Below are positions 44,440-45,627 of a DNA stretch of 64,000 bases, piece after piece. The notes under the pieces are model-generated. The model ran no database searches. It saw only the letters and a list, made by a program, of their open reading frames with translations, and was not told where the DNA came from. A program made the translations under genes and the position numbers. Position 1 is the first letter of the stretch; each line of letters starts with the position of its first letter. Origin of the DNA: Escherichia coli O157:H7 (GTDB taxonomy: Bacteria; Pseudomonadota; Gammaproteobacteria; Enterobacterales; Enterobacteriaceae); NCBI RefSeq assembly GCF_013167455.1, contig NZ_CP038328.1. One strand, given 5' to 3'.

Positions 44440-44910
44440 TCAGGCGTGTTCTTTCAGCCAGTTCAGCACAACGTCGTGGTGATTGCTGGTTTTGAAATCG
44501 TCAAAGACATGTTCGATTTTGCCATCAGCGTCAATCAGGAAGCTGATGCGATGAATACCATCGTAGGTTTTGCCCATGAAGGACTTTTCCCCCCAGACGC
44601 CGAATTGCTCGCACACCTGGTGGTCCTCATCAGACAGGAGCGTAAAGTTAAGCAGCTCTTTTTCCGCAAAACGGGAGAGTTTTTCGGGTTTATCGGTGCT
44701 GATACCCAGCACATCAACGCCCGCTTTTTTCAACTCATCCATGTTATCGCGTAAGCCGCAGGCCTGTACGGTACAGCCGGGGGTCATGGCTTTCGGGTAG
44801 AAATAAACCAGAACACGCTGTCCCTGGAAGTCGGTCAAATTAACTTGTTCTCCGTCTTGATCCGGCAAGCTAAATTTCGGTGCGATATCACCGGCTTTCA
44901 GTGGATTCAT
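44440..44910 (-). CDS. bcp: thiol peroxidase Bcp (peroxiredoxin)
   Basis: Track ORF 156 aa; peroxidatic Cys in PGCT motif. Confidence 0.95.
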   Translation of the reverse strand: MNPLKAGDIAPKFSLPDQDGEQVNLTDFQGQRVLVYFYPKAMTPGCTVQACGLRDNMDELKKAGVDVLGISTDKPEKLSRFAEKELLNFTLLSDEDHQVCEQFGVWGEKSFMGKTYDGIHRISFLIDADGKIEHVFDDFKTSNHHDVVLNWLKEHA

Positions 44911-45482
44911 TACTTAACTCCATCCTGTTCATCATGTTGGGAATAATTGACGACGTTAATACTGCCTTGTGCATTGAGTTCTGTACATAGGGCTTTGAAC
45001 GCTTGCTCAATATTTGCTGCGTCCGCAGATGCGGGGCTGTGGGCAGTAATCTGAATATGCAACTGCGCAGCCCGCTCATTTTCAGCAGGTTGTGTGCGCG
45101 ACACCAGCTCCGCAATGTTCATATGATGCGCGTCGAAAAGTGCTGTGAAGCGTTCAATTAAATGCGGGGAGTCTGCCACATCGACCTGAACCCAGACAGA
45201 TGCTGGCATTGGCGGACGCGGACGCGCCGTCGTGCGCTTCATCACGATTAAAAGATCCAGTTCGGCACCTTTCAACGGTAACGTTGATTCAATCAGAGTA
45301 ATGGCATTCCATGAACCGGAAAGCAGCATGATAAACGTGAACTCTTCTCCCAGCATCGCCAGGCGACTGTCTTCAATATTACAGCCGCAACTACTGACAT
45401 GACGGGTGATGGTGTTCACAATTCCAGGGCGATCGGCACCCAACGCAGTGATCACCAGATAATGTTGCGATGACAGTGTCAA
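44910..45482 (-). CDS. gcvR: glycine cleavage system regulator GcvR (tandem ACT)
   Basis: Track ORF starts at TTG 45548; in-frame TTG at 45482 with AAGGA SD gives the recognised (M)TLSSQHYLVITALGADRPGIVN. Confidence 0.88.
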   Translation of the reverse strand: MTLSSQHYLVITALGADRPGIVNTITRHVSSCGCNIEDSRLAMLGEEFTFIMLLSGSWNAITLIESTLPLKGAELDLLIVMKRTTARPRPPMPASVWVQVDVADSPHLIERFTALFDAHHMNIAELVSRTQPAENERAAQLHIQITAHSPASADAANIEQAFKALCTELNAQGSINVVNYSQHDEQDGVK

Positions 45483-45627
45483 ACTGGTTATTCCTTTAAG
45501 GGGTGAGTTGTTCTTAAGGAAAGCATAAAAAAAACATGCATACAACAATCAGAACGGTTCTGTCTGCTTGCTTTTAATGCCATACCAAACGTACCATTGA
45601 GACACTTGTTTGCACAGAGGATGGCCC

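What the first reader, a model, noticed from the sequence alone, without database searches (positions are those of the whole stretch)
44908..45548. gcvR likely initiates at TTG and abuts bcp with a one-nucleotide overlap
The recognised GcvR N-terminus (TLSSQHYLVITALGADRPGIVN) follows an in-frame TTG at 45480-45482 with an AAGGA SD 9 nt upstream, and no ATG is available. The gcvR stop and the bcp start share a nucleotide (44910). Together with hisS, yfgM, purM, narQ, hyfG and hda, non-AUG starts are frequent in this window.
Basis: partly seen in the sequence, partly recalled or inferred. Interest (0 to 1): 0.25.

Follow-up and report, generated by a model that had tools for sequence, protein, structure and literature searches.

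The report
gcvR UUG start, already annotated
The E. coli repressor gene gcvR does start at a weak TTG codon and its stop shares one base with the start of the next gene, bcp, but both features are already in the standard annotation, so the finding is correct and ordinary.

Summary

- **Identity.** The window is E. coli, 4 mismatches in 64 kb to an O157-like chromosome.
- **Annotation.** RefSeq and the K-12 MG1655 record both annotate gcvR at window 44910-45482 on the minus strand (190 aa, TTG start). Both place bcp at 44440-44910, so A44910 is shared in TAATG.
- **Transcripts.** Published full-length transcript data put the main gcvR-bcp start site 27 nt upstream of this TTG, at window 45509. 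The rival TTG at 45548 is therefore not on the main mRNA.
- **Leader.** The 27-nt leader has no other ATG, GTG, TTG or CTG. It carries AAGGA 9 nt before the TTG.
- **Conservation.** The TTG is present in 84 of 84 other Enterobacterales loci (one genome per species for 80 of them). The AGGAA core is invariant in the 80 Enterobacteriaceae loci plus the window. Four-fold degenerate sites in the same genes are saturated (2 of 45 invariant).
- **Upstream frame.** It carries in-frame stops, indels and a non-conserved TTG45548.
- **Family model.** The NCBIfam GcvR model matches the 190-aa form end to end.
- **Window census.** Non-AUG starts are not enriched: 9 of 56, or 16%, against about 17% genome-wide.

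The only mildly interesting point is that such strict retention of a weak start suggests selection to keep GcvR dosage low.

The parts
44910..45482 (-). gcvR coding sequence (190 aa plus stop), encoding the glycine cleavage system transcriptional repressor with tandem ACT domains
   Evidence: ORF. RefSeq limits. NCBIfam NF008612 scores 398 bits against a cutoff of 267, matching 1-189/189. Pfam ACT_6 at residues 7-82 and ACT at 97-166.
45480..45482 (-). gcvR initiation codon TTG (UUG)
   Evidence: Read. Annotated start. TTG in 80/80 Enterobacteriaceae loci and in 4/4 loci from four further Enterobacterales lineages (Dickeya, a Yersiniaceae-labelled protein, Erwinia, Edwardsiella). It is the only ATG/GTG/TTG/CTG triplet on the 27-nt leader.
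45492..45496 (-). Shine-Dalgarno AAGGA, 9 nt upstream of the TTG
   Evidence: Read. The AGGAA core (-13 to -9) is invariant in 81/81 sequences while neighbouring positions vary. The leader is unstructured, z = +0.8.
45509..45510 (-). Main transcription start of the gcvR-bcp mRNA (K-12 2599878/9)
   Evidence: SMRT-Cappable-seq Supplementary Data 1 and 2 of PMC6131387: 117 reads (M9) and 63 reads (rich medium) start here. Transcripts reaching 2600994 fully cover b2479|b2480. Coordinates mapped; window 45330-45822 is identical to MG1655.
45517..45546 (-). Invariant block GTTGTATGCnnGTTTTTTTTATGCTTTCCT at -8 to -37 of the main start site; the probable gcvR core promoter
   Evidence: Alignment of 73 distinct upstream sequences. 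Recognisable in Dickeya, Yersiniaceae and Edwardsiella. The -35/-10 hexamers were not assigned, and the consensus scan did not pick the block up.
45546..45548 (-). Upstream in-frame TTG, the rival start; not a start codon
   Evidence: It lies 39 nt upstream of the main start site and has no SD. Orthologues have CGG, ATG, TTA or CTG at this position.
45581..45582 (-). Second, upstream transcription start for gcvR-bcp (K-12 2599806/7), about 100 nt before the TTG
   Evidence: PMC6131387 Supplementary Data 2, mapped.
44908..44912 (-). TAATG junction: gcvR stop TAA and bcp start ATG share A44910
   Evidence: A one-base overlap is kept in 70/80 Enterobacteriaceae loci; 4/80 have an ATGA overlap and 6/80 have gaps of 2-3 nt.
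44918..44921 (-). bcp Shine-Dalgarno GGAG inside the last codons of gcvR, 7 nt before the bcp ATG
   Evidence: GATGGAG or a one-base variant is present in the junctions of all 80 loci listed.
44951..44952 (-). Internal transcription start for bcp alone (K-12 2600436/7), 41-42 nt before the bcp ATG and inside gcvR
   Evidence: PMC6131387 Supplementary Data 2, where the operon 'b2480' is marked 'same' as RegulonDB. Mapped.
44440..44910 (-). bcp coding sequence (156 aa), thioredoxin-dependent thiol peroxidase
   Evidence: NCBIfam NF006960 scores 310 bits against a cutoff of 140.
44394..44394 (-). 3' end of the gcvR-bcp transcripts (K-12 2600994), just after a GC-rich hairpin with no T-run
   Evidence: PMC6131387 Supplementary Data 1, labelled 'novelTTS'. 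Mapped.

Best explanation
gcvR is translated from the UUG at window 45482-45480.

**Shown here**
- The main gcvR-bcp mRNA begins 27 nt upstream of this codon.
- The short, unstructured leader carries one Shine-Dalgarno element (AAGGA, 9-nt spacer). It has no other start-type triplet.
- The open frame further upstream, including TTG 45548, is promoter DNA that happens to lack a stop in E. coli.
- gcvR and bcp are co-transcribed, joined by TAATG.
- bcp also has its own GGAG ribosome-binding site and its own internal transcription start.

**Inferred**
- The 30S subunit is positioned by the SD and initiates with fMet-tRNA on UUG.
- UUG is a weaker start than AUG. Together with a weak constitutive promoter it keeps GcvR scarce, and scarcity matters because GcvR acts stoichiometrically on the activator GcvA.
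- bcp output does not have to depend on gcvR translation.
For: - **Annotation.** RefSeq PGAP and K-12 NP_416974.4 both use this TTG.
- **Transcripts.** The start site at K-12 2599878/9 maps to window 45510/45509, with 117 and 63 full-length reads and transcripts covering b2479|b2480.
- **Leader content.** There is no other ATG, GTG, TTG or CTG on the leader.
- **Conservation.** TTG is kept in 80/80 Enterobacteriaceae loci. It is also kept in Dickeya, Yersiniaceae, Erwinia and Edwardsiella.
- **SD.** AGGAA is invariant in 81/81 sequences. Only 2 of 45 four-fold degenerate sites are invariant and 36 of 45 show all four bases.
- **Upstream frame.** 29 of 80 loci have an in-frame stop 8-12 codons upstream with no start codon between. 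Erwinia has TAA and TGA there. The 5' region has indels of 1 nt and 12 nt.
- **Family model.** It matches residues 1-189 end to end. The first ACT domain starts at residue 7. 1U8S residue 4 aligns to residue 6.
- **Codon strength.** UUG starts about 3% of E. coli genes. The three canonical start codons as a group gave 10-100% of AUG output.
- **Promoter strength.** PgcvR is described as a low-level constitutive promoter in PMC2615304.
Against: - **No protein-level evidence retrieved.** GcvR was absent from the one N-terminomics supplement searched. The retapamulin profiling supplement was not held. GcvR is not listed in the tetracycline-profiling supplement that was searched, so that dataset says nothing either way.
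- **Primary paper not readable.** I recall that Ghrist and Stauffer 1998 (PMC107093) mapped the UUG start and the start site. The paper is not held, so that is memory only.
- **A minor transcript contains the rival codon.** The transcript from 45581/2 includes TTG 45548, so trace synthesis of a 212-aa form cannot be excluded.
- **Dosage selection is inferred from one site.** The estimate is about 4% chance of invariance, judged from four-fold degenerate sites.
- **Alternative constraint.** TTG plus ACA forms TTGACA in 61 of 81 sequences, so a DNA-level constraint is conceivable.
Confidence: 0.95

Rival explanations
1. Translation starts at the upstream TTG 45548 and gives a 212-aa GcvR with an MLYACFFYAFLKNNSPLKGITS extension. 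This is the refutation case named by the first reader.
For: The frame is open from 45548 in E. coli. Some public records annotate the equivalent long form, for example the Salmonella 212-aa cluster P0002 with 810 members. A second transcription start at 45581/2 would include this codon.
Against: The codon lies 39 nt upstream of the main start site. There is no SD within 15 nt upstream. Orthologues have CGG, ATG, TTA or CTG at the position. In-frame stops interrupt the extension in 29 of 80 loci and in Erwinia, and the region carries non-triplet indels. The extension is unmatched by the family model and absent from 1U8S.
Confidence: 0.02
2. Translation starts downstream, at GTG codon 10 or 22 or at ATG codon 43, and the TTG is only a leucine codon or untranslated.
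For: In-frame GTGs sit 9 and 21 codons after the TTG (codons 10 and 22) and the first in-frame ATG sits 42 codons after it (codon 43).
Against: These codons are not conserved as starts; the codon-10 GTG is GTT or GTC in most loci. None has an SD. Starting at them would cut into or remove the first strand of the ACT_6 domain, which begins at residue 7. It would also remove residues matched by the family model and by 1U8S. The invariant AGGAA at a fixed distance from the TTG would be left unexplained.
Confidence: 0.02
3. The one-base TAATG overlap means bcp translation is obligatorily coupled to gcvR translation, so the two proteins are made in a fixed ratio.
For: The two genes are co-transcribed. 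The junction is kept tight in every locus examined: 70 of 80 have a one-base overlap, and the four further Enterobacterales loci range from a 23-nt overlap to a 19-nt gap.
Against: bcp has its own GGAG SD at optimal spacing. It also has its own transcription start inside gcvR at 44951/2. The exact overlap is not conserved: ATGA overlaps, gaps of 2-3 nt, a 23-nt overlap in Erwinia and a 19-nt gap in Edwardsiella all occur. One-base overlaps are common, with two more in this window.
Confidence: 0.15

Closest known systems
E. coli K-12 gcvR (b2479, NP_416974.4) with bcp (b2480)
   Same: Same gene and same limits: TTG start, 190 aa, and a stop that shares one base with the bcp ATG. Window 45330-45822, which spans the start region and the whole intergenic region, is identical to MG1655.
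   Different: Only a few synonymous-level differences elsewhere in the genes (16 mismatches in 1601 nt). The window is closest to O157-like strains.
Ghrist and Stauffer 1998, J Bacteriol 180:1803 (PMC107093): gcvR promoter and UUG translation start
   Same: As I recall the abstract, it reports a UUG start, a primary transcription start 27 bp upstream and a minor one about 100 bp upstream. The independent SMRT-Cappable-seq positions read here (27 and 99 nt upstream after a +1 shift) agree with that.
Regulatory genes kept at low dosage by a non-AUG start (lacI GUG, cya UUG, infC AUU; established knowledge, not tested here)
   Same: A weak start codon on a low-abundance regulator. UUG is within the canonical but weaker group.
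   Different: No autoregulatory loop such as IF3 on infC is known or indicated for gcvR. The dosage argument is an inference.
Other one-base stop/start overlaps in the same window: purM-purN and hyfA-hyfB
   Same: Same-strand neighbours in operons that share one base.
   Different: For gcvR-bcp the downstream gene additionally has its own internal transcription start.

Membership tests
GcvR, glycine cleavage system transcriptional repressor (NCBIfam NF008612 equivalog) | Full-length match above the curated cutoff | tested here: met
   398.4 bits against a cutoff of 267; residues 1-189 match profile positions 1-189 of 189.
GcvR, glycine cleavage system transcriptional repressor (NCBIfam NF008612 equivalog) | Two tandem ACT domains | tested here: met
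   Pfam ACT_6 at 7-82 and ACT at 97-166. Homology to PDB 1U8S, E = 3.7e-39.
GcvR, glycine cleavage system transcriptional repressor (NCBIfam NF008612 equivalog) | Conserved neighbourhood: divergent dapA, then gcvR followed by bcp | tested here: met
   for E. coli. for Dickeya, Yersiniaceae, Erwinia and Edwardsiella.
GcvR, glycine cleavage system transcriptional repressor (NCBIfam NF008612 equivalog) | Represses gcvTHP and gcvB through GcvA, relieved by glycine | not testable with these tools
   Literature only. [quoted passage not shown]
Genes initiated at UUG | In-frame UUG preceded by a Shine-Dalgarno element at 5-10 nt | tested here: met
   AAGGA with a 9-nt spacer. AGGAA invariant in 81/81 sequences.
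Genes initiated at UUG | No competing start codon on the mRNA upstream of the conserved protein N-terminus | tested here: met
   The main start site is 27 nt upstream, and the leader has no ATG, GTG, TTG or CTG.
Genes initiated at UUG | Start codon conserved in orthologues while the upstream frame decays | tested here: met
   84/84 other loci keep TTG. Upstream there are stops and indels.
Genes initiated at UUG | Protein N-terminus or initiating ribosome mapped to the codon | not tested
   No dataset retrieved contained GcvR. The 1998 primary paper is not held.
Translationally coupled overlapping gene pair | Same-strand stop/start overlap on one mRNA | tested here: met
   TAATG at 44912-44908. 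Bicistronic full-length reads.
Translationally coupled overlapping gene pair | Downstream translation depends on upstream translation | not testable with these tools
   The independent GGAG SD and the internal bcp start site argue that dependence is not required.

The most novel reading that the evidence does not exclude
The weak UUG start of gcvR is not a tolerated sub-optimal codon. It is actively maintained across the order Enterobacterales as a dosage limiter for GcvR relative to GcvA. It is kept in 84 of 84 other loci examined, although synonymous sites are saturated and the general trend favours AUG (PMC5622118). A UUG-to-AUG change would then cause super-repression of the glycine cleavage operon and a fitness cost.
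Probability: 0.5. Interest if true: 0.25.

Novelty: already known. Interest (0 to 1): 0.07.

Why it matters
It matters little beyond annotation hygiene. The start and the overlap are already in RefSeq and K-12, and, as I recall, in the 1998 primary literature.

Two small practical points follow. First, many public GcvR entries carry false N-terminal extensions of 11-25 residues; this analysis shows they are mis-called starts. Second, gcvR is a clean natural example of a UUG start held invariant across an entire bacterial order. That makes it a convenient test case for whether weak start codons are selected to set the stoichiometry of a regulator.

Tried and rejected
**Primary literature.** Ghrist and Stauffer 1995 and 1998 were tried by DOI and by PMC id and are not held. 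Full-text searches for gcvR with UUG, TTG or 'start codon' found nothing on the start codon.

**Protein-level and profiling data**
- The TRAINSPOTTER N-terminomics supplements do not list GcvR.
- The retapamulin profiling preprint has no held supplements, and its PMC id is not held.
- Li et al. 2014 synthesis rates are not held.
- GcvR is not listed in the tetracycline-profiling supplement that was searched, so it is uninformative.

**Transcript data.** The 2016 Cappable-seq supplements had no hit at these coordinates. SMRT-Cappable-seq did.

**Sequence scans**
- The sigma-70 consensus scan found no minus-strand promoter. I did not assign -35/-10 hexamers: TATGCT is 12 nt from the start site, and TTGTAT-17-TTTCCT fits the spacing but is weak.
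- The Rfam scan found only a chance hit below threshold.
- The leader fold is no more stable than shuffles.

**Ideas considered and rejected**
- An internal promoter using the TTGACA formed by the start codon plus codon 2. There is no -10 element and no start site downstream.
- A 12-codon uORF starting at ATG 45526 on the long transcript. It is not conserved; orthologues stop after 4 codons.

**Not attempted.** Start codons outside Enterobacterales (Vibrio, Pasteurellaceae) were not examined. That would have needed another whole-database search and would not change the verdict.

Full report
**1. What is in the sequence**

All features below are on the minus strand.
- TTG sits at 45482-45480 and is followed by codons for TLSSQHYLVITALGADRPGIVN.
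- AAGGA sits at 45496-45492, leaving a 9-nt spacer before the TTG.
- The frame stays open upstream to a second TTG at 45548-45546, with no in-frame ATG or GTG in between.
- The stop TAA (44912-44910) and the bcp ATG (44910-44908) share A44910.
- GGAG lies at 44921-44918, 7 nt before the bcp ATG.

Every coordinate in the finding is correct.

**2. Identity and existing annotation**

The window is E. coli.
- The 1.6-kb region matches 5,425 of 5,426 complete genomes.
- The whole 64-kb window differs at 4 positions from NZ_CP022689.1.
- RefSeq annotates gcvR at window 44910-45482 and bcp at 44440-44910 in that genome.
- The K-12 MG1655 record does the same: gcvR 2599906-2600478 with a TTG start (NP_416974.4), and bcp 2600478-2600948.
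- The proteins are GcvR (NCBIfam NF008612, 398 bits against a cutoff of 267) and Bcp (NF006960, 310 bits against 140).

The finding therefore restates the current annotation.

**3. Which start codon is used: transcript evidence**

The evidence comes from the supplementary data of the SMRT-Cappable-seq study (PMC6131387).
- Full-length transcripts run from 2599878 to 2600994 and fully cover b2479|b2480. There are 117 reads starting at this site in M9 and 63 in rich medium.
- A second gcvR-bcp start site is listed at 2599806.
- A start site for bcp alone is listed at 2600436.
- The divergent dapA start is at 2599784.

Window 45330-45822 is identical to MG1655, so these positions transfer directly. 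They map as follows.

| Feature | Window position | Distance |
|---|---|---|
| Main gcvR-bcp start site | 45510/45509 | 27-28 nt before the TTG |
| Second gcvR-bcp start site | 45582/45581 | about 100 nt before the TTG |
| bcp-only start site | 44952/44951 | 41-42 nt before the bcp ATG |
| dapA start site | 45604 | 24 nt before the dapA ATG |

A +1 shift of the forward-strand coordinates makes all three forward-strand starts purines. It also puts the main start exactly 27 nt upstream of the TTG.

These positions agree with my recollection of Ghrist and Stauffer 1998 (PMC107093): a UUG start, a primary start site 27 bp upstream and a minor one about 100 bp upstream. I could not open that paper here.

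Two consequences follow. TTG 45548 is 39 nt upstream of the main start site and is not on the main mRNA. The 27-nt leader contains no ATG, GTG, TTG or CTG other than the annotated start. The leader is no more structured than shuffled controls (z = +0.8), and no Rfam family matches the region.

**4. Which start codon is used: comparative evidence**

*Conservation of the start and its SD.* One scan of species-representative genomes gave 80 Enterobacteriaceae loci with 85-99% protein identity.
- All 80 have TTG at the orthologous position.
- AGGAA at -13 to -9 is invariant in 81 of 81 sequences.
- Codons 2-5 and the 5' region vary freely.
- Only 2 of 45 four-fold degenerate sites are invariant, and 36 of 45 show all four bases.

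*Decay of the upstream frame.*
- In 29 of 80 loci an in-frame stop lies 8-12 codons upstream, with no ATG, GTG or TTG between it and the conserved TTG.
- The stretch between the promoter block and the SD carries 1-nt and 12-nt indels.
- The position of TTG 45548 reads CGG, ATG, TTA or CTG in other genera.

*Wider sampling.* Four loci from further Enterobacterales lineages were fetched through database proteins: Dickeya zeae, a Yersiniaceae-labelled protein, Erwinia and Edwardsiella hoshinae. All four also have AGGAAG, then a spacer, then TTG at this position. Erwinia has TAA and TGA in frame just upstream.

*Protein-level comparisons.*
- The family model (189 positions) matches residues 1-189 of the 190-aa form. 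It matches residues 23-211 of the 212-aa form.
- The first ACT domain starts at residue 7.
- Residue 4 of the V. cholerae structure 1U8S aligns with residue 6.
- Downstream candidates (GTG at codons 10 and 22, ATG at codon 43) are not conserved. They would also truncate that domain.

**5. The junction with bcp**

- *Conservation.* In the 80 Enterobacteriaceae loci, 70 have the one-base overlap, 4 have ATGA and 6 have gaps of 2-3 nt. In the more distant loci the junction ranges from a 23-nt overlap (Erwinia) to a 19-nt gap (Edwardsiella).
- *Co-transcription.* The two genes are on one mRNA.
- *Independent signals.* bcp carries its own GGAG and its own internal start site.
- *Conclusion.* The overlap is best read as ordinary operon packing rather than obligatory coupling. 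The same window has one-base overlaps at purM-purN and hyfA-hyfB.

**6. 'Non-AUG starts are frequent in this window'**

Of 56 complete annotated CDSs, 47 start with ATG, 7 with GTG (hisS, yfgM, yfgH, yfgG, purM, hyfG, narQ), 1 with CTG (hda) and 1 with TTG (gcvR). That is 16% non-AUG. The E. coli average is about 17% (83% AUG, 14% GUG, 3% UUG; bioRxiv 10.1101/063800). The binomial p-value is 0.63.

**7. Mechanism**

*Shown.* The mRNA 5' end, the SD, the unique UUG, their conservation, the co-transcription with bcp, and the internal bcp start site.

*Inferred.* SD-guided 30S binding leads to initiation at UUG. UUG belongs to the canonical start group, which gave 10-100% of AUG output. PgcvR is described as a low-level constitutive promoter (PMC2615304). 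GcvR works by binding GcvA (PMC1561403 is not the source; the source is PMC1557403).

Start codons in general drift towards AUG, and selection favours AUG (PMC5622118). An invariant UUG across an order therefore suggests selection to keep GcvR low. This rests on one nucleotide position, with roughly a 4% chance of invariance judged from four-fold sites. I give it about even odds.

**8. Verdict**

- Observation: confirmed.
- Interpretation: supported, with confidence of about 0.95 that TTG 45482 is the start.
- Novelty: already known.
- Interest: low.

What could not be obtained was direct protein-level or initiating-ribosome evidence.

Noticed in passing
window 45517-45546 (minus strand); also L002-L081, L084, L085, L087: A 30-nt block, GTTGTATGCnnGTTTTTTTTATGCTTTCCT, in the dapA-gcvR intergenic region is essentially invariant in 73 distinct Enterobacteriaceae sequences. 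It is still recognisable in Dickeya, Yersiniaceae and Edwardsiella. It lies at -8 to -37 of the main gcvR start site, yet matches the sigma-70 consensus poorly and is far more conserved than four-fold sites. It may hold more than a weak promoter, for example a protein-binding site or an A-tract acting on dapA.
   Followed up: partly
proteins P0002, P0006, P0007, P0010, P0014, P0020 and others: Public protein sets hold many GcvR entries with N-terminal extensions: 201, 203 and 209-215 aa. One example is a Salmonella 212-aa cluster with 810 members. They start at upstream ATG or TTG codons that lie in the promoter and 5' region, so they are start-site mis-calls.
   Followed up: partly
window 44951-44952 (minus strand), inside gcvR: bcp has its own transcription start 41-42 nt before its ATG, within the 3' end of gcvR (PMC6131387 Supplementary Data 2). 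bcp is therefore expressed both from the bicistronic mRNA and on its own. TATTAA at 44961-44956 is a possible -10 element.
   Followed up: partly
window 26564-27265 (plus strand): hda is annotated with a CTG start (233 aa). It appears in the tetracycline-profiling supplement among genes whose start was moved by 45 nt in the 2014 K-12 annotation.
   Followed up: no
protein P0030: A 331-aa protein combining GcvR-type ACT domains with Bcp-type AhpC/TSA domains is labelled as a hypothetical protein of the fungus Astraeus odoratus. It is most likely enterobacterial contamination in a fungal assembly, with gcvR and bcp merged by a eukaryotic gene caller.
   Followed up: no
L086 1269-1291 (Erwinia): In this Erwinia genome gcvR has lost the usual stop codon and runs 23 nt into bcp, giving a different C-terminal tail (...EKMESCDESTESR). 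The junction is kept close, but its exact form is not fixed.
   Followed up: no
window 45477-45482 (minus strand): The start codon plus codon 2 spell TTGACA, the sigma-70 -35 consensus, in 61 of 81 sequences. There is no usable -10 element and no transcription start downstream, so this is probably coincidence.
   Followed up: partly
window 45568-45604 (plus strand): The dapA promoter can be read from conservation as TTGCTT, an 18-nt spacer, then TACCAT. The published dapA start site maps to 45604, 24 nt before the dapA ATG at 45628.
   Followed up: partly
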